From: Trichoplax sp. H2
Lineage: Eukaryota
Direction: 5' to 3'
Length of the DNA stretch: 64,000 bases
NCBI GenBank assembly: GCA_003344405.1
Contig: NOWV01000189.1
Coordinates: 1-64,000, forward strand
The notes beneath the pieces were generated by a model. The model did no database searches. It saw only the letters and a list, made by a program, of their open reading frames with translations, and was not told the origin of the DNA. Positions 26,861-58,200 of this stretch are shown piece by piece (the first letter of the stretch is position 1; every line of letters begins with the position of its first letter). The position numbers and the translations under genes were made by a program.

Positions 26861-29800
26861 TTATTTTTTAGTTATAATATGATTGATCGTAACAAAGACA
26901 ACACATGCAATAGCCCAAATATTGATCACTGGAATCCATAGCCAGTGCTTAAAAGGCGATGAATAGATATTAACTTCATTTCCTAGTTTATCTCGAGCTT
27001 CTTTGCGTCCGTAATAAACTAACGTAGAAGGAATGACATATTGAACTCCAACGCCAGCATACGAGCCGGTAATACCAGCTAAAAATTCCAAATTCTTAGT
27101 AATAAGAGCCAAAGTTACAGGTGGTATGAGGGCTAGTAATGGAAAGACGATGCGGTCTATCCAAAATGGATAAATTTTATCTTCTTTTAGGAGCAAAGAT
27201 TTTAGATTGTTACGTAATGTGACCCCAATAATTGGAAAATTAGAACTAAGAGTGAAAACTGGAAAGAGCGATAGGAAAAAACTGATAAATTTAACATGAT
27301 AATGAGTAAAATTTAATGTATATAAATCTTCCAGCGAGTGAATTGGAAATGTAAATATGGCAGTGTGAGATAATAGCGCATAGAAGGCTAAAACAGTAAC
27401 GTAATCTCCTAATAGAATATACATGACATGCTTTTTCTCACGAATGGGTGTAATCATCGATGGCAATGAATGTTGGCACATGAATGAATAAATACAGATG
27501 CCAAAAAATGTTGGAATACCAGCAAAATTAGCTACCGGTGGATGACCTCTAGCCTTACCACTACCTAGAAAGATGAATGTTATAGAGAGCATCATAGCAA
27601 AGGCTGAAGATTTGGAAATTGGTATTTATGACGGATATTGTAGAAGGAAGAAACGTAAAAATGCAAAATTAGTCGTTCATCATTACAATATTCATGAATT
27701 CATTGCTATCTACAATGGAATAATTTAATTTTATGTAGTGTAATGTAAAAAAATACACGTCTTATAAAATATAGGCGAATCTCTAATCGCCATAAATACT
27801 ACTTAACTTCAATATTTTGAATTAAACTGTGATAAAAGTGATCATTAATTAAAGAAGTGATATTTAGCTCACCTAGCCACCGTAATATAGATGTTGTGAC
27901 TTGCAAGTATTTTGTCTTTTGAACATTGAAAAAGACAAATGGTCCAAGACAGATGGTAAAAGCGGCCTAATTAAATTTTTAATACTATTATTTACTCTTC
28001 AATATCTTTTTGGGACATTTAACTGATGTACAGTCCTATTTAGTTTAGGAATTATTTCTGTTAGTGTGTTAGAAGGAATGCTTACTACAAAGATTCGATA
28101 AGCACCACCAACTGTAAAATTTCCCCAGCAGGGTAATGAAGTATTTAGTCCGGTTCCGTTTAAATCATTACTAACCAAAAATTAAATAATTAATAACAAT
28201 AGCGGCACTTGGATAGTTAAGTTTTATTTAAATTATTAATTACGGATTGAAATTCTCTTGCACTTACCAAGCAACTTTGGTCAGAGATTTTGCAACGGCG
28301 ACAGCATAAATTGCTAAATCGCCATATAGGTAAATACAAATACACAGATAGAAGAAATTGTTGCCAACTATAAATTTAAGTATGCCATAATAGAGAATAA
28401 TTTAGTAATGAAAATCATATATGTAGTAATTGAAAAAAGTCAAAAGATTCAAGAGGCTTCCTATATTACATCCAACTTGAAGTAAAACACTTATTGGTAA
28501 AAGCCTCATATCTTGCAAAGATGAAATACCTTTATTGTAAAACATTCCCGCCATTTTCCCCTAGTTTACAAAATTTAATAAAGCATGTCGATTTAATGAT
28601 AACCTTAATCTGGCAATAGAAAGAGATAATGCTCGCAATAGGAAAAGGATAAAAAGTGGAATCAATTTGAAATCAATTAGTCACTAAATTTATAGCATAC
28701 GAGTATACTAATCAAATATGGGGCAGTATTAATTATTACTAATAAGTTTTAATTGCAAAAGTCGATTATTAACCTGGTATTGAAACATGATCCAATATCT
28801 ATAAAGGCAGTAAATCACAGAAAGATTTTAACCGATGCAGCTATGAAATTAATTGATGAAAAGCTCAAAAGCATAGTCATTTGCTAAACTTATTTTGCTG
28901 ATAGTTGTTTTGAGAGAAATCTATTAGTAGCTCGTTGTTTCTAATAGAAACGAGTTAGATGAAGATTTGAAATTTTGGCTTGCTAAATTAACTGATAAAT
29001 GTCCAGGATTTATAAAAATATACTAAATTAAAATAGTGTTATCTGCTGGTGCCAATACCAATCATTTTAACGATTTGTACCATACATTAAGTAATAAAAG
29101 CATTACTGAATTTATTCTTTAACACGACATGAGCTCGTTTGATTACAACTTGTATAAGGATTTAACTTACTATTGACGTGGAGATTCATTAAAGAATCTA
29201 TCTGGAACTACTCTATTAGCTATTTTTGACTGAATAACTTTATGTCAAGAATCAGATTGAAGATAGAATTCCTCTTAATTTCTTAATGCCTTAAATTTTT
29301 TTATCTGGCTATTGATTGTTGAATTACAGTTACGGTAATTTCTGTTATCTAATATTTCAATAATAATAAATTGCTATACCATAGATTTTAGCTAAATGCA
29401 ATAGTTTAATAAAATTTACCAATTCTACTCTCTCTTTGATTTCAAATACATTGGATATGTATTCCCTCTTAATTTCTCCTAAAGTCCATATCAAATATAT
29501 ATGGATTAATCATGGCATTTATTAAACTTATAGCAAATGAGAAAGAGGATACTCTATTAAGATCAGCCACTTGTAATGTTTATCGTTAACAGAGCTTTAT
29601 TATTTACATCAATTAGATTATAAAGTCATAAATCTTACCATTAATTTCAATTTCGAGATACTTTCGAGTTTGAAGTACTGGCGTTCTTTCAGTATTGATT
29701 GATTTATCTGTTTCTCCTTCTTGATCGCTATTCGACTATAGATAACAGTAATTAGATGAGATTCTTAAATAATTTAATTGTACACTGCACTATTAAATAT

Positions 29801-34679: not shown

Positions 34680-35070
34680 TACAACATATAGGATATAGGA
34701 GATGATTATGTGGTGCGTAGTACTGGTAGATGCTGACCAAGAAATATTGAAACGATGATGGCCTTCTACTATATTAGTTATTTGAGGTTGTGATGGTAAT
34801 CCACCTGGAGTAGTAGTTGATACTGTAGTATCTCCTCGAGTAGTCGGAGTAAATGTTATTGGGTTCTTAGATATTGAAATGAATTCTCGTGGAGTTATTG
34901 AAGTAGATGATGTTAGACTAAATACTATTGAGTTTTAGAGACTACAGAATCAACTACTGCTTGACTTGTTGAAATAAGTAACACTGGGCTTAGTGTAGTT
35001 GGAGTAGATATGCTTAAAGTAGATGATGTGGCAGTACTCAAACATGATTGAATTAAATGATGTTGAAGTA
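34680..35070 (-). pseudogene. Frameshifted fragment: Ser/Thr-rich mucin-like stalk followed by the start of an FN3-like domain
   Basis: Minus strand reads LSTATSSTLSISTPTTLSP..., then after a frameshift ...TPTTRGDTTVSTTTPGGLPSQPQITNIVEGHHRFNISWSASTSTTHHIIISYILY (P-x-x-P...W...Y pattern typical of FN3). Confidence 0.5.
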
Positions 35071-38000
35071 AAAATGGAACGGCGTACCAATACTTTGCAC
35101 TGTATAGGCATATGATAATGAATCAGGTAATTTGAACTTTCATTACAATCATATTTACTAAATTTTCTTACTTCGCTACAGTTACAATAAAGAGCAGATA
35201 ATCAATAGTTTTTGTGTCTTAATTCAAATAGTATAACCATCAATTATAATATGAGAACTATTAACAGTCTCTTGAGAGTTAAGAGGCACTATGCCGTGCT
35301 AATTTTCGTGTAAATAACTTATTGGTTAAACCAACAGCATCATAACAAAGCTACGTTCCATTGCCTATAGTCTTATTTCAAGTCATTCAATAAAATTGAC
35401 ATTGAATATGGCAGAGCATGCACCTGCTTACTGATAATGAGCTGATATAAGGTCTGTAGTGAAAATTGATCGATAAACTTGGAAACAATTCTGGAAAAAA
35501 ATTCTGTTTTATCACTAAGCTGTAACAGCGCTCCATCGTCATTAAAAAATTTTACGAATCAGTTTTGTACCGGAAACTAAACTTTCGGGAATCGTTCGTA
35601 GATAACGACGTAGATCTCCAACTGACTTTTAGAGACCTATATGGGTGAAAACGAACTCTTTTCTTCGCACAAAGATGACTCTTTCAAATATTTAATAGAG
35701 AATTCCTTTACTGTTCTAAGCTACAATATGTGTAAAGCCGTCACTCACTAACATCAGCCGGAATTGATCAATTCATTACCATGATCGTTGTTATATATCC
35801 TAGTCACCTCAGCACAATGCGACTATTAATATTTTAGTTGTGGCCGTTTGTAGGCCTCGGCATAGCGACGAGCTACTAAAGCTATAATAACTTATAGCGG
35901 CAGCTCGTAGACAAAGTTGATTCAAAATCGATTACGTTAGAGCCAAATTGGACATTATCCGGTGTTAATGAACAGACATAAATGATTACGCGTTCCAATT
36001 AGCAATTATGTTTTATTGCCAGCTCAGAAAAACAAACAAATAACAAGCTACATGAGGTAATCGAGTCACCAAATTATTACAAAGCTTAGCACTGTAACAG
36101 GGTATAAGGTTGTCAGAATTATGTTGAATGGATAAATTTATGTAAACGGCTGAAAAATTCTTATAAAACGATATATTGAGAATTTATGTGGTATGTAATT
36201 GCAACAATGTTTGTACATATTGTTGTGTGAAATCATCGAAAAATAAAAAATTACAGGGTAGCTTCAGGTAGAAAGTATTGATAGATTTTATGAGATGTAC
36301 GTTTACTTTCCTTCCCTCTTTATCTATTCAATAGACTTAGGTAAACGTCCAAAGGTTTTAGTCTTGTAATACTACTTGTAAGTCGGAAAAATAATAAAAA
36401 ATGCTCAGCCGGTTGTTCCTTGACCTTTTTGAGCATTTTAAAATAAGGGAAGACACGGTAGTATTCTTCTATTGTAAAAATTTTTTTGTAAAGATCAATT
36501 TCAGATTTACCGTAAAATTTTCTATTGCATCTGTTACGAGTTAGGAATAATCCTGACTTGTAACAAAGGTTGATTATGTATTTCGAATATACACGACTGA
36601 AAATTGAAATATCGGTTAAGGTTTCTTAAACCAGTTTAATCGTACAAGTCACCTCGTCTTTTAGAAATTATCCAAACTAATGCTCTAAAAGGTTTTCATG
36701 TATGTGTAGAATTAAATACAGTTTAGCACAACTAAATTCAAAGTGTCAGCATTACATTGATCACTTGCTAATAGTACGCTAGATTAATATACACGTACAT
36801 AAGTGTATATTTTGCTATCCCATGAAGATGTTTCATTTAAACTTACAAACTGTGCTTGCAGTCATAAAATCATTCAAGGTGATAGTTATAATCTAGTTAA
36901 AGTAGTTGAGAAATGCAATTACTATTTTAGTTTATCTAATTACAGGTTGCTAAAGTATCATTTGTTTAAGGCCAAAGTTACAGTTAAAGAAAGCGTGAAC
37001 ATTACTGACATAGAAGCGTATGCCCATATATCAAACGTAATATGAAAATAATATACATGTCACGAACATCATATAACAGATCTTTCCTCTACTTGTGCAA
37101 ACTTATATTTTATGCTAACTAGTCACGATACTGCTGTTATAGCAGGAACTATTTCTCATAAATGGTGATGTTGATAAACTAATTGTATTTCTCTTATATG
37201 TAGGATTGTGTTAATAATAACATCTTATTAGCCGGATACAGAACAATTACTACTTAGTAACAATACATTGCACATCTTCAGCAGTCAATGTCGCACTTTA
37301 TAATGCTTTACTTCAGCCTGGTCAATCACCTAGTAAATAAATTCTTAATTAATTACTACTAAAAGCCTTTTAAAAATGAAATATTGAATTAAAGATTTCT
37401 ATTATGAGAATTCTATACTTCAGCGTAACAGTTAATTATCTAGGGAATAAATTTATGAAGCAATAAACACTGCAGGTCTTCAAAAAGTGAAATAATGAAT
37501 TAGCATTTTCCCCATTCCATAAGATAATATGCTACACATAAAACTGTACTATACAATAATGTTAGTATAGATAGTGTTGCGTTACATCAGGTAACTGTCA
37601 GAACATAGCAGTAAGATTATTCGTATACCGAAGTAAAGTCTACAAAAACACTTGATAAATGATCTTACACACTCATCACCTAGATCAATTTTTAAATTAA
37701 TTTACAGAAATTACCGTATCGTAACATCCTTATTTAAGATATTTCGTTAATTATTCTTTCTATATAATTTCTTTGAACTAGCCTTCAAGATTACTAATAT
37801 ATGTTTACTACATTGTTATTTTTTGAATACGATTCAAATTCGTCTGAATCTATCATCAATTTACAAAGAGTAGGATAACGAAAGAAATAACAGGGAATCT
37901 GCTATTTAAAAATAAATATATACATAAGAACTTAATACAATGGTTTGACAGATTTATGGACGTCCTCGTTCCGCAGCTTTGAATAGTATCAGCTAAAATT

Positions 38001-38315
38001 AAACAAAAACATACAAATGCAAATATTTTAAATCTTCAGAGAGTTGAACTTTAATTAAGTTAATGATTTGAGTAATCCATTTATTCATACATTGATTTTG
38101 AAATATCTAATTATATACTATCTTGAATAGCTTCAGGCATGGCGAATTTTTGATGCGTTGCAATCTAATTCCATTGCAAACTGCATGATTACGAATCTTT
38201 AATACGGTTTACTAAGAGAAAGTTTACAAAGTAAAAGAAAATTTCTTGCGTTGCAATTGTGATTGTGACGTGGTCAAATCCCTTTGAGAATAACATAACC
38301 ATGAAAACTAAAACG

Positions 38316-38323
38316 TATAAATA
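38316..38323 (+). promoter_or_regulatory. TATA box of the microexon peptide gene
   Basis: TATAAATA about 120 nt upstream of ATG 38437, with no intervening ATG. Confidence 0.55.
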
Positions 38324-38436
38324 GGCTTTTACAAGTTAATTCTTGCCATTACTAACTCACCGCGATTGAATAATTTCTTGTTAGGAGTATATCAATTTTG
38401 ATTTAGATTCATTTAGAAAGCAACATATCTTGGAAA

Positions 38437-41400
38437 ATGTCGAAAGTTATTCCTTCCGTTTTGCTCATCGCCTGCGTCCTACTGGCTTTCTTTCATTCTA
38501 TTGAAATGTAATTAAGGCTAAGGCTAGAATTATCAAGTTAAATTTTGTTTTGCAAGTGGATTAACATAGTCGACAAATTTCAACTGCTTCTCCGATTTTT
38601 TAATTTCATCTCACGTTTATATTTTCTGTTCTACACTAGGAATCCTCGCAGGTAAAATATGAAATATCATGTAATAAAAGAACTTAACAGAAAATTCTAA
38701 GTCATAAACATCTTTCTTCTTTGCTTCAATTCATTTGATTTTTGCTGTCATCTAACTGTCGGAACATGTATCTGTAGCCTTAATGAAAACGAGATGTGAG
38801 TTGTAGTTGTAAGGGTACTATAACTATCTTTTTCAGTGCAGTAACAAATAAACATTTACATTTGTACAGCGTTATTAATGTCCTTTTCCTCTTTTCTGTA
38901 ATATCTTTCATGACACTCTTACTACTGTCACTACTTGGCTTTTCACTGCAGAAGGGAACTATAGTAAGTTAAGCCAGTTTGATCAACTATAGATAGTGTG
39001 GTGCCTACATCGACTATAATGCACGTAGCTATGTAATCCAAATTGATATAAATGTTGAAAAATGACCACTCCCTCTGTTTCTGTCTGTATATTCCATTTA
39101 TTCTCTTGGGACTCTACACGAAATAACACAATTATTATAGCGAAGAGTAAGATTAAAATTATGTTTACTAGTATTAATCTCATATTCCGGCTAAATTTCA
39201 ACTAATAATACAAATAATTTCTAATATTCTATGCATGGACCTGTTCGTGAAATTTAGATTTTCGGACAAAAGAAGAAGACCCACCAAGTACGATTTGAAT
39301 AAATTCTGAGATATAAAACTTAATGTATAAATAATTATAGTAAATGATTATCTAATATTTTTACAGGACATGGTAAGTAGCTCTTCAGGATTCCTTTGAT
39401 TAATACATTGGTGAAAAAGGTCTTAACTCATTCTACTTGTCTTTACCAGTTACGATGGCCCATATTGCCTCGTGAAGTACGGAAAATCAGAGTTCTGCTT
39501 ATAATACTTTGCTATATCGATATCAAATTTTTCTTACTATAAAAATAAGTAGCAAGAGTATATTGCAAGAAAATTGCGTACGAGACAATATTTGAAGATG
39601 TTTAACGATTGAAATTTTCATGAAAGCATCATAGCTTGATAATAAAATTAATTCATGCCTGAATACAGTGTTTTGTCATTACAGTACAAAACTATTATCA
39701 ATTCAATTTGTTTTAGCATATATAGCATATGAAGATAACAACGTGTATGTTCATTTTTTTTTTATTTCTACTATAATTATCTACTGACTTATTACTGCAA
39801 TGATCTTGATAAATCCTTATTAAGTTGAAATTTATTTTTAGTAGTACCTGTAACGTAGAGCAAAAATAACCTCTAATTTTAGCAATGTGTACATAAATTT
39901 AAGTTTCCGATAGAGTAATAATTATATATTTTCTTTTCTTTTATATGCTATTGCTACAATTGGGTATTAAATATAATCCGAAAACAAATACATTCTCAAA
40001 TTGACAAACAGATCCAGTAGAAATTGGTAAGTATGATTGCTGTGTCTCATACAGTATACCTTGCTTCTAGTTACAATAATCTAATGAATTATCACTAAAG
40101 TAATCACATTTTAAATTATCTATCTACCGAGAGAAATTAATCGATAAATTTCATTACATATGTAGTATTATCTTTGCAAGATATCTGACTAAAAATGATT
40201 GAATTTAATGTCTGATTGAAAGTTTAATTTTAATTGCCCTTAAATATATCTTATGTTAAATGGTAAACATGATTCTAATTAAATGTTTATAAATTGAAAC
40301 CAAAATTATAAGCTACTGTTAACACTAATAATGAAACTTATATTTTACTCCTATTCCATATCTTAATAAAAACGAATAATACCAAAGCTGGTAAGATAAA
40401 TTTTACATACTTACATCCTGCTATTATTCAAAATATTTGATTCAATTTATTATAGTCATTTATGGTAAAATTTTAAGACTCGCCATATTATACTATAAAT
40501 ATTTAATGCTTTACAATTGTCTTATATGAAATTATGGAATGTTATCCTGTCGATACCAATTATATTTTATTTATTCCACCGTAGCTTCGGGTAAGTATAT
40601 TAATGATTATGTTTCACGTGTAATTTCATTCTTTAAGCTATAAAAACAACATTATTTATTAAGAATTAAACTGCAGTCGAAGAGTTTGAAATATGCAAGT
40701 ATGCATATAATGCTTTGGGTTAGCGCACCTAAACTGAGTAGTAGCTACCATAGATAGTATCAAATGCAGTGCGATAACAATATTTATTGGAGTTGTTATG
40801 TATCTATGGTCGGCCACACAAAATGACGCAAACAGTAGAATGGTTTCAATGCAGTTTATTGAAAAGTATAACCTACTCAAGAACGGATGAATAGTAGAAC
40901 TCACTTAATAAAGAATAAATCAGTTTTACAGAATCAGTAGCTCATGAATGACTACAGGATAATAAAAATATGTTATGTAGAATATTGCTATGAATTACAG
41001 TTAGAAAATCAATATGTTCATCACGTACAATAACAACATGACTTAGCAATATTGCTAGTATGGAAAGTATATGAACTCAGAATTGTAATGTACTTTAATC
41101 CAAATATGAGTTATACGCTATAGAGTATAACTATTTTTATGATTACATACAGGCATAACAGTTAGAATAATGTCGTTGTCATTTTAAAGAGAAACCAAAT
41201 AGTTAATTATTAAACCGAACAAAAGTTGAAATGTTACTATAATACTAATCAATATTTGCTTTTAATCATTTATATTATTTTATACTTGATTGATGAACAA
41301 ACGGTGGTAATTCCCATAGAACTTGGTAAGTGCTATACTGCTGATAAAAATAAATTAATGATGCATAGTTTAGATAAAAATACTATTTTAGTTTTGTACA

Positions 41401-44400
41401 GTAATATCTTTTTAAAACTAAATACAGTTGCTTCAGCAACTTTGCTGAAGTGCCTTTTTTAAGAATTCAGTTATTACTTATTTTTACATAGAATGGCTGG
41501 CGATAACAGTTACAGTAAATTTGAGAATAATTGCAATTCGATAGCAAGATGCTCTATTGTTTCTGAAATATACTCTAGTATAGCTCTTTCATTATATCTT
41601 ATTTGAGAATAGATTAATTTAGTCAATCTTATTTGGGGATTATTAAGAAAAAGTGGATAGTGTTTAGAATCATATTTGTTATTAACACAGCGTATTGCAT
41701 AAATTATTAGATATTTCAATTAATTACTTACAAAATATACTTGTATAGCCACTAGAAGACTATTATATTACTCATTCTGAAATCATTAAGATATATAAAT
41801 GAATATTAATGCGATATGATTACCTCTAACTATTAAAAATTTAAAAACAGTCAAAACTATTTTACTACCTTATAGCTCTGTAACAGTTGCAATATCATTT
41901 TTTCTATTTCTTTTCTGCTATGAATGCGAACTACTATTCTCAACTACAAACACAAAATTTGCATTTAACAGCTAGTAAGTTATTATCTTCTTATATAATT
42001 GATTTCATTTATAATTTTTAACTCGTATATTACAATGTTATGATAATAATCTTTCTGAAAGCTAGTATATGAGTATTGGAACGTATGACTACGATACTGT
42101 CGTTTGTGTTCTTAAAACAAGAGATTCACAGTAATTGTTATCAGACACTGTATCTCTAACATCAATTGAGGTTTTTCAATTACAAATTATATAGCAGTCC
42201 ATGAATTTTAAAATAAAAATTAAATATCTATTGATACCTAATCGGGTAATAATTTCGTTTTTTTTATGATCACATTGTTCTTACGATTCGCCATGATATC
42301 TTGGTACGAAATATTTATCTATAGTTCGTAAGTATGATGCTAATAAGTAAAATAAATTGATAAGAATTGTACGCAAATATCAGAAAACCCTTTCAGAATT
42401 TAATATTAATCCATTTTATCAAATATACAATATCACAGTAGTTAAATAACTAATGCATAATATATAGGAATAATAATTATAGTACGGTCAATCTTTGACC
42501 ATAATAAAATTCTTTTAGAACGAGTTACCGCGACAATTTCATGTGTTTATACACGTATTATTTTAAACTAACATGCGTTAAATGTCACAATTATAATTAG
42601 TACTTTCAGTTTGCCTACAGTATCATCAAAATATTAGACGAAAATCATTATTTAGCTTTGAATTTTTATTGCATTTATAAACGGTAATGTGCAAAATTAA
42701 AACTTATCCATGGCATTATTTTAAAAGTGCTATGTATAATTTATTTTGTTCCGTTTCATATGTTAACTGAAGTTATTATTTTAGATGCTCTTCCGCTATT
42801 AGTAAAATTCATGACTCGTCTAACACATTCTCTTTAATTTATTTGTGTTATAAATATCATACCTATCTATTCCCTGGCAATGGTCGCATTAGGATGTAAG
42901 TAAAGCAATTAGATATAACTGTAAATGAGAAAATTTATTGTAACATGGGTCATTACAGCTTCTAGTAAAAATTATAGTAATATCAATGCAGGATAAACTA
43001 ATAACACTAATTGTCACTTGCAAAACATCGCAAAACATCGCAAAACGGAAATTGCAACTGTTGAGTTCGTCGTAACCAACATGCAAAATGCGAAGCTCTT
43101 AACTTATTCCTAGTGTTTGGAGCTAACAAAGTCTCTTTTAATTGACGTAGTCGTACGATTTATAGTAACGCTAATGCAGTTAATTGAAATTCGGTGCAAC
43201 ATACTATATCATGATCCTTCTAGTTCAAGATCATAAGGAGTAGCTTACTCTTTCATCTTTAAAAATTTTGTCTGTGATATGTCTGGTATTGTACACGGTA
43301 CTATAACAGAGTATATATGTCTATTCGCGGAGAGTGATAATGTCTAATATTGCATCCATGCCCTATTTGCAAAGTACATTATTATTTGCAAAACTAAGAA
43401 AGCGATACGATTTCAATGAGATACATTCCTTGTTTCATACATATTTTATCATTCAAGTAGTTACAGATATTACCGTTCGGTATCCTGTAGAAATTCAATC
43501 AAACCATATCGCATAAATTTTCGGTCATACTACGAACAACAACACTACTTTCTCTTACTATCTATGTCAAAACACTAAAGTTGTAATATGTTTAATTTTA
43601 ACAGTACGGCACAGCTTAAGAAATTTATGATTATAGTGCACTTATTAATACAGCATTTGAGTTTCAGCAGAACCAAGTAGTAACATCAGCAGAACCAAGT
43701 AGTAATTTAAATGACTTCAATTAACTAAGAATTTCTGTTAAAATCTTGCACATTATTGGTATGTTTATTGATTTGAATTAGAAGATTTTAATTGGATACG
43801 TTAAAATTAATTGTGTAAATAAGGTTGATCTATACTAGTTAATTCAGCAAGAAGAGCAAATACAATGCAGTTATTGATTGTGAGTTCTTTAGAAGGATTC
43901 TTCTTGAGTATTTTAGTAATAGCTATCTAATCCAGTAGTTTCAGTTTAGGTTAGTAATTTAAGTAAAGTGACAAGATAGCGGCTCTATATTATTTAGTAA
44001 TATATTGTCAGGTATTCCCATACAAATCGATTATGTATGTATTACTATAAGATGTTCCATAATTTATGAATCAAAAGGAATGTAAAGTCTACAAGTAAAT
44101 TAAGAATGTATATTTGCTTGCTGTTGTAACGAAAATATGCATATCATTTAATATTTTTTCAATTTAACTAACTTAACGTTGTTGGTATTCAAATTTTATC
44201 TTAAACTTGAGGGTTTAACACCAATTCTATCATTAAAAGTTGAATGTATGTAATTTCAAACTAAATATTTAATAGATGATGTCTAATAGGTAACTATTTT
44301 TAATTCCTTTTACTATTGCTCCGCTACCAACGCTGACACCATCTAATAATGCAGTACATCAGCGTAAGATATAATTATAATCAATTTACTTAATGCTATT

Positions 44401-47400
44401 TCATATATTTTTTATGCTTTACTTAATATAACTCTTCATTTTGTTGTATGGTAAGTATTTTAAGCTTATCTTTTTTATTAAGAATTATATACGATCGCAT
44501 TAAGATTGCATTAGATAACTCAATCGTAGGAATGAAAATTATTGGTTTGAATTTTTTATAAATGTTTCAATAGTCTTAAATTAGGACTGATGTAATCTTT
44601 ATTAGCACAAATAAATGTAAACCATTTCCGGCTAACAATTTTACATTAATTTCTAATTTGTATGGGCGATTAATAGCCTATCTAATCTTATTACTTTTAG
44701 CGTAAAATTGAGCCTTTAGGTATAGTAAACTTAGTTAGATGATCACAAAACCAGTAACGTGACCTTTTTGCTTATTATTGATTATTATAATCACGGAAGG
44801 TGATGCAAAAGTCTTTTGGAAAATTATAGGACTGAGATACCATAGTTTATGAATATAATTGCAGATTTCATGCTCTATGTATTCTTTATAGTTAATGCAT
44901 AGAAATTTGAAATAATTTATACTAGATATTAGATCGTATCATGCAATTGTCTTTGCATAGTTATGGTTAACTTACATTAGGTACATTGCTTACGGTATAC
45001 GAATACAGTATTATTGTATATATGAACGTATATACTGTTCCTTAACCTCAGTTGAAACTTGCAATAAAAATAAGTACCTTTAGAATAAGAATCACATAAT
45101 ATTTAGGGCAGAGCACTTCAGTTTTAAAATAACAGACCTTAATAACATAATAGATGGAAATGTTTGTGTTAATTCGTATCAAGAAACTGCTTACAATAAA
45201 TTAATCAGAATCATCAGCTACATATTACTAGGCTAATTTGATGAACTGGCAGTTTATAATATATTGTAGAGTAAGATAAAAGATCTCTTCTCTACCTTAC
45301 ACAAAAAATATTATGCATTCATTGATTAAAGTTGTATCAGTTATCTTCAACAAATATTAAAAAAAATGTTTTTTTTAGACATTTGAAATAATTAAGATTT
45401 ATTTTTATTTCTTTTTTATATCGACATCTCGTCTTTGCTTTCCTTTGGCAATTTACATTGAATTTACAGAAGCAAGTAAGTTGCCTATTTAGTATAGATA
45501 AATAATAAAGTGTTTAAGCTAGCTGTTCTTATGATCGCGGTATTTCAGCAAGTATCTATGATCATATACTCGCTAAATTTACCTGAAGGAGAGCGAATAG
45601 CAGATTACTGATATAGATAATCATCTACACGCTAATGTGAAGTACAGCATCTATGACGTATTTGTTCAATTTATACTTTAGTCTCTACGAGAAATTTTAG
45701 AGCAATTGACTAAGTGTTTTAGCTTGATAGCGATGTTATATCGATAATGTCTTGGACTGTTTGGGAATACTGAACAATCATATATTGCTAGAGCATTGAA
45801 ATTAATAAAGAATAGGACTAGGCTAGGATTAAATTCTGGAATAACAAAACAAATAATTTTTTAATTTTACTTCACTTTTATAATTAATTTTTATGTACGA
45901 TTCCGAAATTGGGCAATAAAGCGCGTAAGTACAATATTTTATTTACTTTATTTATTTAAATTCTAATAGTACCTTATTTACTTATAATTGGATATTTGAT
46001 ATATCTTATTTCTGATATCAGTTACTATTGATAAAGATTTCGAACTTTATTTTAAATTGCCACGATATTAATGCTTTTATCAACTCTAGCGAAATTAATT
46101 GTTTGCATAAAGATTACATTAAACAAATTTGACGACGAGAAAATATGAATTTAGTTTCTACTGCCACACATTATACAATTTTATCGCTAAGCTACTAGTG
46201 CTGTAGTTCGTATGCTTAAGCTACGATAATACTTCACAAATTAGAGCGATATGCGAATAAATTTAATTTTATGCCTACTATTCAATCTTATGTATGCCAT
46301 ATATAATTGTCCTTCATGCAAAATTGATGATTTTCTAAAAACGAATTGGTCTATCATAAAGTGGGTAAGTATTACTTCATAGATTGTTTACCTTTCCTGT
46401 CATAAGCGAGATTTTCGTGCAGAATAAATTTTATTTCAGGACTCTGTACCCTACATGTTTAATAATGTATTCATCCATGATCACGTTCAGTATTAAATAG
46501 AATCGTAAGCAAGTTGAATTCGTGATAAAATAAGTTGTCATCACACTTTAATCATCTCTTAATAATAGAAGATATTTTACGAACTGTTTTGTAAATTGGG
46601 TGAAGGTTTCAGAAACTTAGCACATTTGCGACACTGAACAATGCCAGACTAAACTACAACGGTCACAGATTATTTCATTTTAGTCATTATAAAAACAGCA
46701 ATGTAATGAAACTGCGATAATAGTACAAAGTGCTATACTATAACTTTTAGTATATCCGTAAAGTAAAAATTTCGCAAGTGGGTCTGTTTACCTAATTATT
46801 AGATAATACGGTTTAGTACTAAGTCCGTTTACGTAATCTGATCATTAATAGTGATTTAGGCTACTCGCATTCATTTTCAATAATTAATTATATACAATTA
46901 TTAATATCTTCCAATCATATTCTATGCATTTGAGACAGCATAAATTAAATTTATTACTATGCATAACCTGCGCTATATTCTACATGGTCAAGAACGACTA
47001 TCTATTAAAGTAACATACCTTTGTCAAAATTCAGATATTTTACGAAACTTAAAATAGTAAGATACTGATGTGATTATGTATAACTATCAACTAATAGAAT
47101 TGTCTTACTTTTTAATATTGCACTTCTATGTCATAAACTGTATGACCATCAACGTCTCAGAGTGTAAGTTAAATACTATCAAGCTGAAGTACATTTTACA
47201 ACTAATTATTTATTGTTTGCTTTATATTATTCAGTATTAATATTCTATAATACGAAATTAATATAGCGTTCTTTTACCATTTGAACGTTCTGTACTTCAT
47301 TGCCTATTTCAAATATTTTGCAACCATTCGTATACTACAATTAATCTAGTTTCTCGTAGATATTTTTTGTAGAGTATCATTTTTATCTTTATTTTATTAA

Positions 47401-47609
47401 TAATAACTTTCGTATTTTTAATTATGGAATATTTATACTATGCCCACTCGGAATGTTAGATGGTAAGAATTGATAGAATAAAGGATTTAAAGTTTAGTAC
47501 TTATCAAAAGTACTATATTTCAATTACATTTACGATCCCTCTTTCTCAATACTAAAAGAAATAGCTACATTTCTGATGCCTTTCTCTAATGTCTTTCAGT
47601 ATCAATTAA
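38437..47609 (+). CDS. Microexon-encoded secreted cystine-knot (knottin/toxin-like) peptide precursor, 85 aa, 22 exons
   Basis: Exons: 38437-38507 (71), 38640-38651 (12), 38778-38795 (18), 38952-38963 (12), 39141-39146 (6), 39258-39287 (30), 39367-39372 (6), 39450-39476 (27), 40012-40026 (15), 40388-40390 (3), 40585-40590 (6), 41320-41325 (6), 41972-41974 (3), 42325-42327 (3), 42893-42895 (3), 44355-44363 (9), 45470-45475 (6), 45922-45924 (3), 46362-46364 (3), 47161-47163 (3), 47460-47462 (3), 47600-47609. All introns are GT-AG and phase 2. Spliced product: MSKVIPSVLLIACVLLAFFHSIEMNPRSLNENEIRELYEEFSDKRRRPTKTCYDGPYCLVKSSRNCCFGTCYSITSASNAGVCIN*. Confidence 0.82.
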
Positions 47610-48769
47610 ATACTGCAGCATTAACAGAATTCAGCTGGTCATGCCTGCGATAGTATAGAATTAGAAGATCAGGAATTGGTATGGTAATCGTTACAAGAAG
47701 AAGAGAAGACTTAATTTAATCTGAAATACATCATGTATTGCAGTTGATTTTCTTGTAACTTTTAACAAAATTTAGTGGTAGATTCTACCTAGCATAATTA
47801 TAATCTAAGGATAATTTACAACATCTTATAGTGTAGGTTACATTGCGCACGTATTGCTCATAACCAGTAAAACCAATGCTCGTTCTATTTTCGTGTACTG
47901 CAAGTACACGTACCTATTACTTGGACAACTAACGAGGTTTTGGTTTACTGCTCGTAAATTTGCTTCAATATTGCTGGATTCTTGACATTAATATCCTAAA
48001 TTCCTAATCCATGACCAAGATATAATAAAAAGGCCTTTGAAATAAAATTTTTCTACTTATGAGCTACTATAGCTTAATTTTTGCAGCATGAATTGTTACA
48101 AAGGGACATGGCATGGCTTTGGATCAGTGTCTTATAATTCATAGTAGTAAAACGCTAACAATGTAGTTGCCATAGACATTACCGAAAATACAATTTATTG
48201 CCTTGATGGCGAGCAGTTGAATACCTATCTGTGCACAGTTCTCGGAGTATAAATAAATTAAAAGGAATCCTGTCACCTACAGAATCTATAGACGGGTCTG
48301 TATCATTGTGTATTCCAGCGACTACGACAAGAAATATTTCTAGTTGATCCTTAAATCGAAGTATAAAACTAAATTAAATCAATTGCAAGAGCGCTAACTA
48401 CGAGGTAATTTACAATTTAAAGCAGGAATCGGTACAGTCTCATAGACTATTCGAGTAGTTGCACATTTTTACAGTGAATGATGTCAGGAACTTCTTTTAT
48501 GGTGTAAAATTTCCTTTATTTTTACCAATTTTTTTTATGGAATAATCCCTGTTTAAAGCCTACCGGGAAAACTCCCGGCGGCGGATTGTAACCAATTATT
48601 AGAATGTTTGCAGAATCTACAGGATGCTTTCCTAATACTTGAAAATCCTAACTATCGAGGTTCTTCTAGACAGTCCTAACATAGCTGGACGTACATTACT
48701 GTCCCATGGACTCCGTACAGTCATGCTTATGCTGTATTCTAGATCACAGCCACTCATGGTAGAGTTAAG

Positions 48770-49382
48770 ACGACAGAGCATGATAAAATCAGAGCCTTCT
48801 CAAATCGATCCAAAAACATATCAATTGAGGATTCATCATTCCATTTGAACATTTTAATCGAAGGTTTAGGACCAGCCAGTCTCGAATCGTTGAGCTGGAG
48901 TTGTTGCAGCATTCGACTCTTCCACCGTGATGTATTGTGAAGTATTTCTTAAATATTAAACAAATATTAAAGAAAATGTACTGTACAGTAAGGCTAACTA
49001 GAGTATCCTGTTTATGACGCTAAATTGTTGTGTATTACTGTCTAGAGTTAAATACTAACAACTGTATTAAAAGTTCGTACTACTCTCACTTAGCATAGAG
49101 ACAAGAAATTGAACACTTAGTTGAAGTTATTGTAAAACTAACTACCAACTCTTACTCTCGTTATTGTATCGGAAACGGCGGCTTATATACGTGCACCGTT
49201 CACATTTCTAACGCAATGTAATTGCAAGTTTATGCAACAGGAAATTCATTATTAAACGTACAATCGAATAAATATAGCGTAGCGTAGTATATAGTAGTAC
49301 TGATTTCTATACTGTATGCTTGACTAATGACTTTGACTTTATGTCTTAAGTTTACGGTATGTCTAACGGTGTAGGTTTAACA
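48770..49382 (-). mobile_element. 5' remnant of an LTR retrotransposon (LTR, degenerate tRNA-Ser PBS, gag-like fragment)
   Basis: LTR-like 49026-49382 (TGTT..AACA, minus-strand TATA). 49005-49022 ATCCTGTTTATGACGCTA resembles the tRNA-Ser(CGA) 3' end ATCCTGTTCGTGACGCCA. Downstream minus-strand peptide PKPSIKMFKWNDESSIDMFLDRFEKAL resembles a Ty3/Gypsy Gag N-terminal motif. Confidence 0.55.
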
Positions 49383-50137
49383 GGACTATATAATATTCAA
49401 TAATAGTCATTCAGTCCATTTAAGATTACTACATGTGTTTGCGTCCATTCAATATTACCTACATTAAGTATATTACTGTGATAATTCATTCATTATAGTG
49501 TCATCAATGATCTAATTTTGTCGAGTAATGAATGCATCCTATGTTAACACCTAACCACGAATGAACTATTATTCGATGTCATGGAAAGTGTGCAAGTGAT
49601 TCTTGCAATATTCAGCATGTAGACTTAGCAATAAATTTATTATTGTTTTGCACCAACAAAGTTGGCGAGGCTATATAAAAGCCTCTAAATTCTTAATTGG
49701 GGGAAGTGGATAAGTTAGATGATAATTATAATAGATGGTTATCAGGTATTTGTAGTAGATTGGAAGTTGTCAGTTCAATGGGTTATTTTAATAAAGCTTT
49801 AATTCTTAGTGTGAGTGTTCATTCTCTTATCTAAGGCTCCAATCTAAGTTGGGTAGATTAAAGAGAGCTTAGACTTAGATAGTTACGACTAGTTTCCAGG
49901 AAAGAATCCCGTTCATTTTTGCGTTGCATTCTCGGCTGTTTTAATGGCTGACTTGCCGTTGAACTACGCCTTCAATTTCTTGTTTCGATAGTAACAGACG
50001 CTTATGAGACTACTGTCCTGTACACAGTACCGTACTGTATATCAATGTAAAGTACGATACTACACCCTAGTGTACCACACCATGAATCAGAACGTCGGAT
50101 CCTCATCGCGGTAACTCTATCGTTTAATCGTCAAAAG

Positions 50138-53584
<3,447 letters not shown>

Positions 53585-55295: not shown

Positions 55296-58200
55296 CTATT
55301 TACCATTAAGATAGAAATGAACACTATCCAATGCTTCATTTAGCGCCCTCATCCATTTTCGCTTTTCGCTAGCTGAATCAGCTCTTAAATAATAATTACG
55401 ACCAGGTGTTTTGAATACAAAGCAAAATCCATCACCACGCTGATGAGATGCAATGTCATCTTCTTGGACTTTATAACCTCTATCCTGTAGTCCAATATCG
55501 ATCTCACCTAGTGGATAAGGCTCCTAAGTAGGGAGAAAGGAAACAGAATAAAGCCATTTAGTTCGAGTCTCGAAGCATTGTCGCAGTTTTTGCATCTAAA
55601 ATAATTTTGATGGGTAAGTAGCTAAACTCACCAATAATTTAGACTTAATTGTGAACTATAATTAGCCCTGACAAGTTTTGTAGTTGGATTATTAATCATT
55701 TTAATAACATTTATGCATATGTGCCAGCCATAAAATAGAACTAATTCGGTCAGCACAATCTTTATTCTTATAACTGCATATTTTACATATAGTATCCACT
55801 TAGATCAAGCCTACAGATTAGTTCAATCTTGACTGTTATATCGCCTTTGAGTATTAGATATATAGTTTATACTACGAGATAGCTTAGTTGCAAATATTTC
55901 TAATTTCTTGGCTTATAGAATGGTTATATCATGTTACAATCAGCTTAGGAAATTGTGCTGACGTAGAAACATATATGAGCCGAAACTTACCAACGGGCCT
56001 TTAAAATACATTAATTTTCTGTCATATAACGAGAACCAGCGTCTGCGGAACGCTCCATTTTCCTTTTGATAGTAGCGAAGAAAAATGATTATTCACAGCT
56101 CAATATTTACGTTATAGATAGATTTTTTGAATAGAATATTTTGCTGCGATAAATTTAGGATCTAATAGTTCATTCTATTGCTGGGCAGTAAAAGTATATA
56201 GTACAAGGAATATTTTATCAAGAAAATAAAGAAAAAATATATCCTTAAAGAAAATAATAGAAGTGGTCTGAACATGATGACAATCTAATATATTAGGCTA
56301 CCTTTGGTTATAAATTACCGTAATCGTTAACTGGGATAACATTTTTTAGTTAAGATGCATAATATAAAAACCGATAATAATTACCTTTGGACCCGTCTTT
56401 TCTAAGTAGCCTTCATGTAGAAATTCAATGGATAACATACGTGATATCTAGAAAATTGAACAAGATCCATGAAATGAGGAAAGATTACAATTTATTTATC
56501 ATCGACATAACCAAGTAGAATTCAAGATTGTTGGCGAATAATTTTGACTTTAGTAAAGCTTAAATAGCATCTATATCTACATTCGTAAAGCCACATCATT
56601 AAACTTACTCTTTCTTCCTCTTGCTCTGGAATCGATTTATAAAGACAGCCAAGAACAGCAGCCTTGGCTGTTCGTATAGCGCATAACCAATCAATTACTT
56701 CCTACATTGTAAAATCAGTCTATCATCAATTATTTACAACAGTTTCCAGTTCAATTCTTGAAAAAACGGTGATAAAGCAGTAGTAACTGATCGATAAAAC
56801 TCATAGCATAGAGAAATCAATATTAAGGTCTCCTATAGCTTTATTATAACTTAACTAGAGATCGCTGGGCTTATTTACCTTGCCCGACTCGGAATACATG
56901 TAAAAATTTCTTGTTTTTCCGTCACTCTCTTTATATAAAAGCTGAAGACCATATGGTTTACCAAGTTTTTGTTTGCCAACCAAGGTTGCATTAATACATT
57001 CAACACTCATTTCACTTTTAGGTTCAATGTCCTGCAATTAGAAATTGCAGTCTTATAAGTATGAGACGGTAGAATAGGGTCGCATTTAAATTGGAAATAA
57101 AGATAGAAGTTGTCTACTTTTTCATTAATGAAATAGGATAAAGTTGTAGCATCATCGGATAATACGAAAAGGCGCCGGTTCCATTCATTCTTAATTTTTC
57201 CCTTTTTCCATAGGAAACCTCTTTTCGCAGCTAAGTAATAGAAAACGCAAGTTATATCTTTATTGCCGCATCGATCGATCAATACTAGCGAGTTTATCTA
57301 CTCTCATCCATACTTCATAATGAAAAATTTAACGATAGCAAAGATAATAAGCGTTTAGTATATTAAAACAGTAATTTCAGACTTACAAATATTCTGATGA
57401 CGAAATCTATTTAAAATGGCTATCCTAGAAATTAAGTTGTTAATACTAACTTGATAATGGAATAGTACTTTTTTCACCAGTAAAGAGACGATTTTCATAT
57501 TTAGCTTTAATCCAATGTTCTCTTAGCATCCTATTAGTAACCAGAGAGATAGTGCCATAGTTAGCAGTAATAAGATAAATATTCGGTAAGATAGATATAT
57601 ATTTATAAGAGATTAATCAGAGCCTTACTCAACGTTCCTAGCGGAGATCCTAGGAAAAAATATAGGAACACGTTTCTCCCACATTTTATTAGCTGATTTA
57701 TTATCGTTATCAGCCATAATCTAAAATGTGAGAAAGATGAAATAAGATAGTTGCTTCTAATTGCAAAAAAGGCAATTAGCTGACAGACTTACTTGTATAG
57801 CAGTATCAGTCCAATCATCCAGGAAAACTGATTTAACTTTGGAGATATGGACACCAAGACTTCGATGAACAGTAACGCAATCAGTGCAAATAAATACGCC
57901 AAGATTGAAGGAAGCCCATTCTAGTGATTCTAGATATCGAAAGTAAAATAGAAACTCGTCAGAGTCTAGAGAAATTTTCCATTTCACTTAGGGATGTAAG
58001 AGGACATGGAATATACTAAATTTCAGTAATCCTAGTAATTAAGCTTATCGCATTAACTGTAAAGCAAAAATGTTTGAATTATAAATTTAGTTAATATACC
58101 ACTTAAAGTATACTTTAGCTGTAGAATTTAATTTTAAAAGATTTTCTATATCCGACTTAATTTAAATTAGATTGCATCTGGCATAGCTAAAATATTGCTA

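What the first reader, a model, noticed from the sequence alone, without database searches (positions are those of the whole stretch)
38437..47609. Hidden knottin/toxin-like peptide gene built from 3-30 nt microexons
Seen: the apparent 9-kb gene desert holds a run of tiny AG-[3n nt]-GT(AAG) units, eight of 3 nt and five of 6 nt. Joined in genomic order they give an uninterrupted 85-aa ORF: hydrophobic signal peptide, acidic propeptide (NENEIRELYEEFSD), KRRR, then RPTKTCYDGPYCLVKSSRNCCFGTCYSITSASNAGVCIN. A TATA box lies upstream. Known: signal + acidic pro-region + basic cleavage site + C-x5-C-x7-CC-x3-C-x11-C matches the inhibitor-cystine-knot precursor layout of framework VI/VII conotoxins and spider toxins. 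Inference: a secreted defensive, predatory or antimicrobial peptide in a probable placozoan. Only 258 coding nt are spread over 22 exons, so gene finders and spliced aligners would likely miss it, and it may be undescribed.
Basis: partly seen in the sequence, partly recalled or inferred. Interest (0 to 1): 0.97.

Follow-up and report, generated by a model that had tools for sequence, protein, structure and literature searches.

The report
Micro-exon peptide gene in Trichoplax
The apparent 9-kb gene desert in this Trichoplax adhaerens window holds a real, transcribed gene whose small secreted six-cysteine peptide is encoded by 22 exons, thirteen of them only 3 or 6 bases long, a design so far described mainly in parasitic flatworms.

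Summary
Joining 22 exons between 38437 and 47609 (+ strand) gives a 258-nt CDS of 85 aa. Eight internal exons are 3 nt long and five are 6 nt.

- **RNA support.** Contigs from three RNA runs of one study join exon 1 to the last exon. They show exons 2, 4, 5 and 7 letter by letter. They leave exactly 177 nt for exons 2-21, the predicted sum. A DNA-like run shows no joints in the gene.
- **Blind scan.** A scan for an AG-free zone of at least 50 nt, then an AG, then a GTAAG-type donor within 30 nt recovers all 13 central micro-exons and few other sites.
- **Organism.** The window is Trichoplax adhaerens.
- **Product.** Signal peptide, acidic pro-segment, KRRR, then a 38-aa peptide with the pattern C-x5-C-x7-CC-x3-C-x11-C.
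- **Classification.** The gene meets the operational definition of a micro-exon gene (MEG) used for flatworms.
- **Untested.** Knottin fold and toxin function could not be tested, because the spliced protein could not be passed to the search or folding tools.
- **Literature.** No paper found describes nuclear micro-exon genes in placozoans.

Verdict: a new, extreme variant of a known gene architecture. Interest is high.

The parts
38316..38321 (+). TATAAA box, 32 nt upstream of the 5' end of the longest RNA contig (38348)
38348..38436 (+). 5' UTR as far as the RNA contig reaches (89 nt, no upstream ATG)
38437..38507 (+). exon 1 coding part (71 nt): start codon and hydrophobic signal-peptide-like N-terminus; donor GTAATT
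38640..38651 (+). exon 2, 12 nt
   Evidence: its letters appear between the two sides of the joint in 3 RNA runs (table 5c)
38778..38795 (+). exon 3, 18 nt (start of acidic pro-segment)
   Evidence: (aligned piece 38776-38795)
38952..38963 (+). exon 4, 12 nt
   Evidence: letters shown in RNA contigs of 3 runs (table 5c)
39141..39146 (+). exon 5, 6 nt
   Evidence: letters shown in RNA contigs of 3 runs (table 5c)
39258..39287 (+). exon 6, 30 nt: end of pro-segment, KRRR site, start of mature peptide
39367..39372 (+). exon 7, 6 nt (ends with TG of Cys I)
   Evidence: inner 4 letters shown in RNA contigs of 2 runs
39450..39476 (+). exon 8, 27 nt (Cys II)
   Evidence: piece 39449-39476
40012..40026 (+). 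exon 9, 15 nt; AG-free zone of 94 nt upstream
   Evidence: counted in the 66 nt that the RNA contigs leave
40388..40390 (+). exon 10, 3 nt; AG-free zone 73
40585..40590 (+). exon 11, 6 nt; AG-free zone 105
41320..41325 (+). exon 12, 6 nt; AG-free zone 92
41972..41974 (+). exon 13, 3 nt; AG-free zone 83
42325..42327 (+). exon 14, 3 nt; AG-free zone 125
42893..42895 (+). exon 15, 3 nt; AG-free zone 88
44355..44363 (+). exon 16, 9 nt; AG-free zone 63
45470..45475 (+). exon 17, 6 nt; AG-free zone 71
45922..45924 (+). exon 18, 3 nt; AG-free zone 93
46362..46364 (+). exon 19, 3 nt; AG-free zone 113
47161..47163 (+). exon 20, 3 nt; AG-free zone 61
47460..47462 (+). exon 21, 3 nt (TG of Cys VI); AG-free zone 83
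47600..47609 (+). coding part of exon 22 (10 nt including the stop codon)
47610..48036 (+). 3' UTR as covered by RNA contigs; AATAAA at 48024, contigs end at 48035/48036

Best explanation
This is a genuine, transcribed micro-exon gene of Trichoplax adhaerens.

Shown:
- A TATA-type promoter sits at 38316. The primary transcript is about 9.7 kb (38348-48036).
- It is spliced through 21 GT-AG introns, all phase 2, into an mRNA of about 774 nt.
- The first and only sizeable ORF encodes an 85-aa precursor. It has a hydrophobic N-terminus (exon 1), an acidic pro-segment (exons 2-6), a KRRR site (exon 6), and a 38-aa peptide with net charge +2 and six Cys in the pattern C-x5-C-x7-CC-x3-C-x11-C (exons 6-22).
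- Every acceptor is the first AG after a long AG-free zone (median 83 nt).
- Every exon of 9 nt or less is followed by a GTAAG donor.

Inferred (mechanism):
- Exons of 3-6 nt cannot hold 3' and 5' splice-site complexes side by side. They are therefore probably recognised by intron definition and in sequence.
- The pyrimidine-rich stretch lies some 40-90 nt upstream and the first AG is taken. Ligation then presents the near-perfect U1-complementary donor for the next step. This resembles recursive splicing, except that 3-6 nt are kept each time.

Inferred (product):
- The precursor is secreted and cut by a furin or prohormone-convertase-type enzyme after KRRR.
- The mature peptide folds into a three-disulfide mini-protein, possibly an inhibitor cystine knot.
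- Its role (defence, antimicrobial, prey lysis or signalling) is open.
For: RNA:
- X10 contig (773 nt): record 1-161 lies on 38348-38508 and record 337-773 on 47599-48035.
- X8 contig (728 nt): 38394-38508 and 47599-48036.
- Both leave 175 letters between. Adding the two boundary Gs that the aligner absorbed gives 177 nt, the predicted sum of exons 2-21.
- The letters printed between joints equal exon 2, exons 4+5 and the core of exon 7. X16 shows 3 of the 4 joints.
- X1, the DNA-like run, is colinear with the window and has no joint in the gene.
- The predicted mRNA is 774 nt. It has no upstream ATG and no other ATG-ORF of 25 aa or more outside the 85-aa frame.

Sequence statistics:
- 12 AG-(3 or 6 nt)-GTAAG units on the + strand against 0.71 +/- 0.88 in shuffles.
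- AG-free zones before the 21 acceptors have a median of 83 nt (range 24-125). The 392 other AG-AG gaps in the same introns have a median of 11 nt (Mann-Whitney p = 3e-13).
- The blind scan gives 23 hits on the + strand of the 64 kb. 16 are exons of this gene, including 13 of 13 central micro-exons, whose lengths sum to the 66 nt measured in RNA. The - strand gives 11 hits.
- The 6 decoy GTAAG sites examined in the gene have AG-free zones of only 3-22 nt.
- GTAAG donors follow 14 of 14 exons of 9 nt or less, but 2 of 7 exons of 12 nt or more (Fisher p = 0.001).
- All 20 internal exons are multiples of three.

Organism.
Against: - The 66 central nt of the mRNA (exons 9-21) were not seen as letters. 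Only their total length is known ('between: not known').
- All RNA support comes from Logan contigs of three runs of a single study labelled metatranscriptomic. Contigs cannot show level, strand or rare isoforms.
- There is no protein-level evidence.
- The signal peptide was judged from hydropathy only. No SignalP run was possible.
- Fold, connectivity, homology and function were not tested.
- The splicing mechanism is an inference from sequence signatures and general spliceosome knowledge, not from experiment.
- No orthologue or paralogue could be examined, so conservation is unknown.
Confidence: 0.88

Rival explanations
1. The gene and precursor are as described, but the mature peptide is a signalling ligand (hormone or neuropeptide-like) rather than a toxin, defence or antimicrobial peptide.
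For: - A convertase-type basic site after an acidic pro-segment is the usual layout of secreted regulatory peptides as well as toxins (established knowledge).
- Placozoans rely heavily on peptidergic signalling (PMC12013895, passages).
- A leucine-rich-repeat rhodopsin-type GPCR gene lies upstream on the same strand. This is a coincidence at best.
Against: - There is no C-terminal Gly for amidation, and the product is a single long disulfide-rich peptide rather than the repeated short peptides of known placozoan precursors (recalled).
- No expression site is known.
Confidence: 0.3
2. The six-cysteine domain does not form an inhibitor cystine knot. It adopts a mini-granulin-like fold or another three-disulfide fold.
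For: PMC11035057 (passages) reports that peptides with the same VI/VII framework can adopt a mini-granulin fold. It also reports that AlphaFold can mis-assign the connectivity and that the fold cannot yet be predicted from the framework.
Against: In that paper the mini-granulin cases have short loops of 2-4 residues. Here the loops are 5, 7, 0, 3 and 11, closer to typical ICK peptides.
Confidence: 0.3
3. The transcript is spliced as described but is not translated. It would be a non-coding or host transcript whose ORF is incidental.
For: There is no protein evidence, and the ORF is short (85 aa).
Against: - 20 of 20 internal exons are multiples of 3.
- The ORF starts at the first AUG, with no upstream AUG.
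- The ordered layout of signal, pro-segment, KRRR and six Cys is present.
- No Rfam family was found in 37000-49000 at E <= 1.
Confidence: 0.03
4. The central part of the mRNA is made of a different set of tiny exons than the 13 listed, with the same total of 66 nt.
For: One search gives only the length of that part, not its letters.
Against: - The blind scan finds exactly these 13 units in 39477-47599, and their lengths sum to 66.
- Four other GTAAG sites in that span lack a long AG-free zone.
- The frame and the cysteine pattern are kept only by this set.
Confidence: 0.04
5. The units are a chance pattern in AT-rich non-coding DNA, and no gene is present.
For: None remains after testing.
Against: - Spliced RNA contigs in 3 runs.
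- Shuffle controls.
- AG-free zones.
- Blind scan.
Confidence: 0.01

Closest known systems
Micro-exon genes (MEGs) of parasitic flatworms (Schistosoma, Echinococcus, Hymenolepis)
   Same: - The first exon carries the signal peptide and the last exon carries the stop and 3' UTR.
- Most of the CDS lies in a run of very short symmetric exons, all multiples of 3.
- Introns are short at both ends and long in the middle.
- The product is small and secreted.
- Gene finders and read aligners miss these genes (passages).
- It meets the operational definition of Olson et al. 2020.
   Different: - The host is a free-living non-bilaterian, whereas MEGs are described as restricted to platyhelminths or Schistosomatidae.
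- The exons are smaller: eight of 3 nt and five of 6 nt. Schistosome MEG exons are mostly 6-36 bp, with 15 bp the commonest.
- The product has a fixed six-Cys framework, so exon skipping would destroy it rather than make useful variants.
- No alternative isoform was seen, but contigs cannot show rare ones.
- Sequence homology to any MEG family was not testable.
Micro-exon gene reported in the myxozoan Tetracapsuloides bryosalmonae
   Same: It is a MEG outside flatworms, in a cnidarian (one sentence in the review PMC8481699).
   Different: It is a parasite surface antigen. I saw no structure or sequence. The primary source is a meeting abstract that is not in the library.
Conotoxin and spider-toxin type precursors with cysteine framework VI/VII (inhibitor cystine knot)
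   Same: The order is signal, then pro-region, then basic cleavage site, then one C-C-CC-C-C domain of about 30-40 aa (for this gene; the family layout is recalled and partly given in PMC11035057).
   Different: - Homology, connectivity and fold were not tested.
- The gene structure is entirely different. Cone-snail toxin genes have few exons (recalled).
- No venom apparatus is known in placozoans.
Recursive (ratchet-point) splice sites of long Drosophila introns
   Same: A 3' splice site is juxtaposed to a consensus GTAAGT donor, and the parts must be used one after the other (recalled knowledge; the pattern here is).
   Different: Here 3-15 nt between AG and GT are kept in the mRNA and code for protein. 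Sequential use is inferred, not shown.
Isolated 1-3 nt micro-exons in ordinary genes (for example Coprinopsis cinerea)
   Same: Exons of 3 nt are real and spliced. In C. cinerea there are 27 exons of 3 nt in 26 genes (PMC12230235, passage).
   Different: Those are single micro-exons in otherwise normal genes. Here 13 exons of 6 nt or less, within a run of 20 micro-exons, make up most of one gene.

Membership tests
Micro-exon gene (operational definition, Olson et al. 2020, PMC7653826) | At least seven exons | tested here: met
   22 exons; definition read
Micro-exon gene (operational definition, Olson et al. 2020, PMC7653826) | [quoted passage not shown] | tested here: met
   20 of 22 exons
Micro-exon gene (operational definition, Olson et al. 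2020, PMC7653826) | [quoted passage not shown] | tested here: met
   A run of 20 (exons 2-21)
Schistosome-type MEG (descriptive features) | About 80% of the CDS in short symmetric exons; signal peptide in the 5' exon; longer introns in the centre | tested here: met
   - 177 of 258 coding nt (69%) lie in internal 3n exons, somewhat below 80%.
- Exon 1 is hydrophobic.
- Introns 1-7 are 77-177 nt, introns 8-20 are 194-1459 nt, and intron 21 is 137 nt.
- Features read.
Schistosome-type MEG (descriptive features) | Protein variants made by skipping symmetric exons | tested here: inconclusive
   X8 and X10 contigs show one isoform of identical length. Contigs drop rare variants.
Schistosome-type MEG (descriptive features) | Sequence homology to a named MEG family | not testable with these tools
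   - The spliced protein cannot be submitted.
- The only natural ORF of 30 aa or more (P0241, around exon 1) gave one spurious hit among 1.84 billion representatives.
Inhibitor cystine knot / knottin | Six Cys in the order C-C-CC-C-C with compatible loop lengths | tested here: met
   Gaps are 5, 7, 0, 3, 11. The accepted loop ranges are recalled, not checked against a database.
Inhibitor cystine knot / knottin | Disulfides I-IV, II-V, III-VI with III-VI threading the ring | not testable with these tools
   No fold prediction was possible for a spliced product. Prediction would in any case be unreliable for connectivity.
Inhibitor cystine knot / knottin | Significant match to a knottin or toxin profile (Pfam) or a solved structure | not testable with these tools
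   The family and structure searches take only unspliced window translations or stored proteins.
Secreted prepropeptide processed by a convertase | N-terminal signal peptide | tested here: inconclusive
   The Kyte-Doolittle mean of 11-residue windows is 1.8-2.7 over residues 1-21. No dedicated predictor was available.
Secreted prepropeptide processed by a convertase | Basic cleavage motif between the pro-segment and the mature peptide | tested here: met
   KRRR lies at residues 44-47, after a 20-aa segment of net charge -4. Cleavage itself is not shown.

The most novel reading that the evidence does not exclude
Placozoans may carry a hidden class of micro-exon genes for secreted cysteine-rich peptides. 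These would be missed by gene finders and by single-cell atlases built on the resulting gene models. They would be spliced by a dedicated code: an AG-free zone of 60-125 nt, the first AG, 3-15 nt, then a GTAAG donor. That code would let the spliceosome string together many 3-nt exons. The architecture would have arisen independently of the MEGs of parasitic flatworms. It would therefore not be an adaptation to host immunity but a general way to build or diversify small secreted peptides.
Probability: 0.4. Interest if true: 0.9.

Novelty: new variant of a known kind. Interest (0 to 1): 0.82.

Why it matters
**Splicing.** Thirteen exons of 3 or 6 nt, within a run of 20 micro-exons that are all joined correctly, is an extreme test of how splice sites are recognised without any exon to define. 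The neural micro-exon factor domain (eMIC) is reported to have arisen only in bilaterian ancestors (PMC8797185). The sequence signatures found here are long AG-free zones and obligatory GTAAG donors. They give a directly testable rule and a simple genome scanner.

**Evolution.** MEGs have been tied to parasitism and immune evasion. A MEG in a free-living early-branching animal separates the architecture from that explanation.

**Annotation.** The locus looks like a 9-kb gene desert. Similar genes may be missing from placozoan gene sets and from cell atlases that depend on them.

**Biology.** It adds a candidate disulfide-rich secreted peptide to an animal whose lytic and defensive secretions are not molecularly identified (recalled).

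Tried and rejected
- **Whole genome:** none is held, so no paralogue scan was possible.
- **Full-length protein or relatives in the protein collections:**
  - The exon-1 translation (23 aa) was too short for the search for homologous proteins.
  - The natural stop-to-stop ORF around exon 1 (34 aa, P0241) gave 1 hit among 1.84 billion representatives. It is a 545-aa repeat protein that matches mainly the part translated from the 5' UTR, so it is spurious.
  - A blank here shows neither absence nor novelty.
- **Introner-like origin:** all-against-all blastn of the 21 introns gave only 3 rows, each 30 nt or shorter. The introns are not a repeat family.
- **Intron-hosted RNAs:** no Rfam match at E <= 1 in 37000-49000.
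- **ORFs inside introns:** four were scanned (40659-40904, 41214-41462, 42889-43098, 43307-43516). None has a Pfam match.
- **Second micro-exon cluster in the window:** none.
- **Shared k-mers near the 13 central micro-exons:** only TTCC upstream stands out (7 of 13 against 0.9 expected). This is marginal after multiple testing.
- **Low-depth unspliced RNA contigs inside introns:** these may be pre-mRNA or DNA carry-over. I draw nothing from them, nor from uncovered bins.
- **Literature:** searches for the exon-8 peptide motif, Trichoplax + knottin, microexon + Trichoplax, micro-exon + placozoa and placozoa + cystine knot/conotoxin/ICK found nothing relevant. Supplements are closed, so gene lists in supplementary tables of placozoan genome and atlas papers may hold this locus unseen.

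Full report
**What is in the sequence.** The region 38437-47609 (+ strand) was read directly. An ATG at 38437 opens a 71-nt exon. Twenty further units follow, each with the form AG-[3n nt]-GT, and then a last exon whose tenth base ends a stop codon at 47609. Joined by coordinates, the 22 exons give a 258-nt CDS of 85 aa with no stop. The internal exon sizes are 3 nt (eight), 6 nt (five), 12 nt (two), and one each of 9, 15, 18, 27 and 30 nt. All 21 introns are GT..AG and all are phase 2. 16 of 21 donors read GTAAG.

**Transcript evidence.** One search for sequencing runs listed three runs on record as RNA (X8, X10, X16; one study, three samples). It also listed DNA-like runs that hold up to 0.84 of the sampled words.

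I laid X8, X10, X16 and X1 on 35000-51000.
- The X10 contig of 773 nt lies with record positions 1-161 on 38348-38508 and positions 337-773 on 47599-48035.
- The X8 contig of 728 nt lies on 38394-38508 and 47599-48036.
- In both, 175 letters lie between. The aligner absorbed one G at each border, so exons 2-21 occupy 177 nt. That is exactly the predicted sum: 111 nt for exons 2-8 plus 66 nt for exons 9-21.
- The letters shown between the sides of the joints equal exon 2, exons 4 plus 5, and the core of exon 7. Exons 3, 6 and 8 are aligned pieces.
- X16 has two partial contigs with 3 of the 4 joints.
- For the joint 39476 to 47599 the letters are 'not known', so exons 9-21 are supported by length only.
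- X1 covers all 30 bins at even depth and has no joint inside the gene. The spliced form is therefore not a DNA copy.
- The predicted mRNA is 774 nt. It has no upstream ATG and no other ATG-ORF of 25 aa or more outside the 85-aa frame.
- TATAAA at 38316 lies 32 nt before the contig's 5' end. AATAAA at 48024 lies 12 nt before the contig ends.

**Independent sequence signatures.**
- *Density.* In 39477-47599 there are 12 AG-(3 or 6)-GTAAG units on the + strand and 2 on the - strand. 1000 dinucleotide shuffles give 0.71 +/- 0.88 (maximum 5). The rest of the window holds 13 per 53,910 nt on each strand.
- *AG-free zones.* Each of the 21 acceptors is the first AG after a long AG-free stretch, median 83 nt (range 24-125). 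The 392 other AG-to-AG gaps in the same introns have a median of 11 nt (Mann-Whitney p = 3e-13).
- *Blind scan.* I scanned both strands of the 64 kb for an AG-free zone of 50 nt or more, then an AG, then GT[AG]AG within 30 nt. The + strand gave 23 hits, and 16 of them are exons of this gene. These include 13 of 13 central micro-exons, whose lengths add to the 66 nt measured in RNA. The - strand gave 11 hits. The six other GTAAG sites examined within the gene have AG-free zones of only 3-22 nt.
- *Donor strength.* GTAAG follows 14 of 14 exons of 9 nt or less, but only 2 of 7 exons of 12 nt or more (Fisher p = 0.001).

Together with the frame (20 of 20 internal exons are multiples of three), these results make chance or a non-coding reading very unlikely.

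**Organism and surroundings.** A 254-aa ORF on the - strand (26861-27625) is 100% identical over 97% of its length to TRIADDRAFT_21298 of Trichoplax adhaerens, a TMEM104-type transporter. The next named hits are at about 54%. Upstream on the + strand lies a leucine-rich-repeat GPCR gene with a 7tm_1 domain at 23648-24742. Downstream on the - strand lies an ArfGAP/PH gene. No second micro-exon cluster is in the window. The introns are not related to each other and hold no Rfam family.

**The product.**
- Residues 1-21 are strongly hydrophobic.
- Residues 24-43 have net charge -4.
- KRRR sits at residues 44-47.
- The remaining 38 residues have net charge +2 and six Cys with gaps of 5, 7, 0, 3 and 11.
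- Five of the six Cys codons are split TG|Y by an intron.
- X1 differs from the window inside exon 9 (40017 G>A). By my reading of the frame this is a Ser-to-Asn change in the second loop. It is one observation and not followed up.

Secretion and cleavage after KRRR are inferences from this layout.

**How it probably works.** An exon of 3-6 nt has no room for the complexes that mark a 3' and a 5' splice site at the same time (established knowledge of exon definition). Recognition must therefore come from the introns and probably proceeds stepwise. The T-rich block sits some 40-90 nt upstream of most central micro-exons (sequences printed). Behind it lies a zone kept free of AG, so the first AG is the right one. 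The donor immediately after is the best possible match to U1 and U6. Formally this resembles recursive splice sites, except that a codon's worth of sequence is kept each time. None of this was tested experimentally.

**Comparison with known systems.** The architecture is that of the micro-exon genes of parasitic flatworms.
- It shares the signal-peptide first exon, the symmetric exons, the long central introns and the secreted product (passages in the 2023 bioRxiv preprint, PMC4350168, PMC5825161 and PMC7653826).
- It passes the operational definition in PMC7653826: at least 7 exons, at least half of them micro-exons, and a run of at least 4.
- Those sources call MEGs restricted to platyhelminths or Schistosomatidae. 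One review sentence reports a MEG in a myxozoan parasite (PMC8481699).
- Single 3-nt exons occur in ordinary genes, for example 27 in 26 genes of Coprinopsis (PMC12230235).
- The eMIC-dependent neural micro-exon programme is said to date from bilaterian ancestors (PMC8797185).
- Here the host is a free-living non-bilaterian, the exons are smaller than those reported for schistosomes, and the product has a fixed cysteine framework.

The precursor layout resembles framework VI/VII conotoxin and spider-toxin precursors. Membership in the knottin class was not tested. PMC11035057 shows that the framework alone does not decide between an ICK and a mini-granulin fold.

**Novelty and limits.** Searches joining microexon or micro-exon with Trichoplax or placozoa returned only the mitochondrial cox1 micro-exon paper and unrelated papers. 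Searches for knottin, cystine knot or conotoxin with placozoans and for a peptide motif of exon 8 found nothing relevant. A 2025 survey of placozoan secretory cells does not use the word 'exon' at all (0 occurrences) and none of the passages shown concern this gene. Supplements could not be read, and no annotation set could be queried, so an unpublished or supplementary record of this locus cannot be excluded.

The spliced protein could not be given to the homology, family, fold or structure tools. The only natural ORF long enough (34 aa around exon 1) found nothing real. No genome was available for a paralogue scan.

I rate this a new, extreme variant of a known kind of gene. The structure is firmly established and the function is open.

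Noticed in passing
window 1-24742 (+): A large gene for a leucine-rich-repeat rhodopsin-type GPCR. Many GTAAG donors sit at about 0.5-kb spacing, LRR-like ORF pieces are present (for example 15626-15898), and a 7tm_1 domain (E 3e-23) lies in ORF 23648-24742.
   Followed up: partly
window 26861-27625 (-): An exon of the TMEM104-type amino-acid transporter. It is 100% identical to TRIADDRAFT_21298 (Trichoplax adhaerens) and names the organism.
   Followed up: yes
window 55296-57987 (-): ORF pieces with ArfGap (E 2e-17) and PH domains. This is probably one ArfGAP/PH-domain gene.
   Followed up: partly
window 50137-50815: A tandem array with a 124-nt period, each unit holding an AG-28 nt-GTAAGT motif. 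The DNA-like run X1 has a contig that skips 440 nt (50258 to 50699), which suggests a copy-number difference between individuals.
   Followed up: no
window 37517-37619 and 48884-49951: Multi-copy elements. In X1 the depth is 2-10 times the flanks, and many contigs are only 90-95% alike with loose ends. RNA runs also hold diverged copies.
   Followed up: no
window 47636: In the 3' UTR, all three RNA runs read C where the window and X1 read T. This is probably a strain difference. It is not the A-to-I type of change for a + strand transcript.
   Followed up: no
window 40017 and 39290: X1 differs from the window inside exon 9 (G>A, read by me as Ser to Asn in loop 2). It also differs at position +3 of the donor after exon 6 (A>G, still a purine).
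   Followed up: partly
window, 100 nt upstream of exons 9-21: TTCC occurs in 7 of 13 upstream regions against 0.9 expected from deep-intron samples. T-rich blocks lie about 40-90 nt upstream rather than next to the AG. These may be splicing signals, but the enrichment is marginal after multiple testing.
   Followed up: partly
window 38673-38899, 39901-40225, 40311-40880, 42843-43448, 46236-46422: Low-depth unspliced contigs in the RNA runs run across micro-exons and their flanking introns. They may be pre-mRNA or DNA carry-over. One X10 contig joins 38229 to 40573 on opposite strands and is likely chimeric.
   Followed up: no
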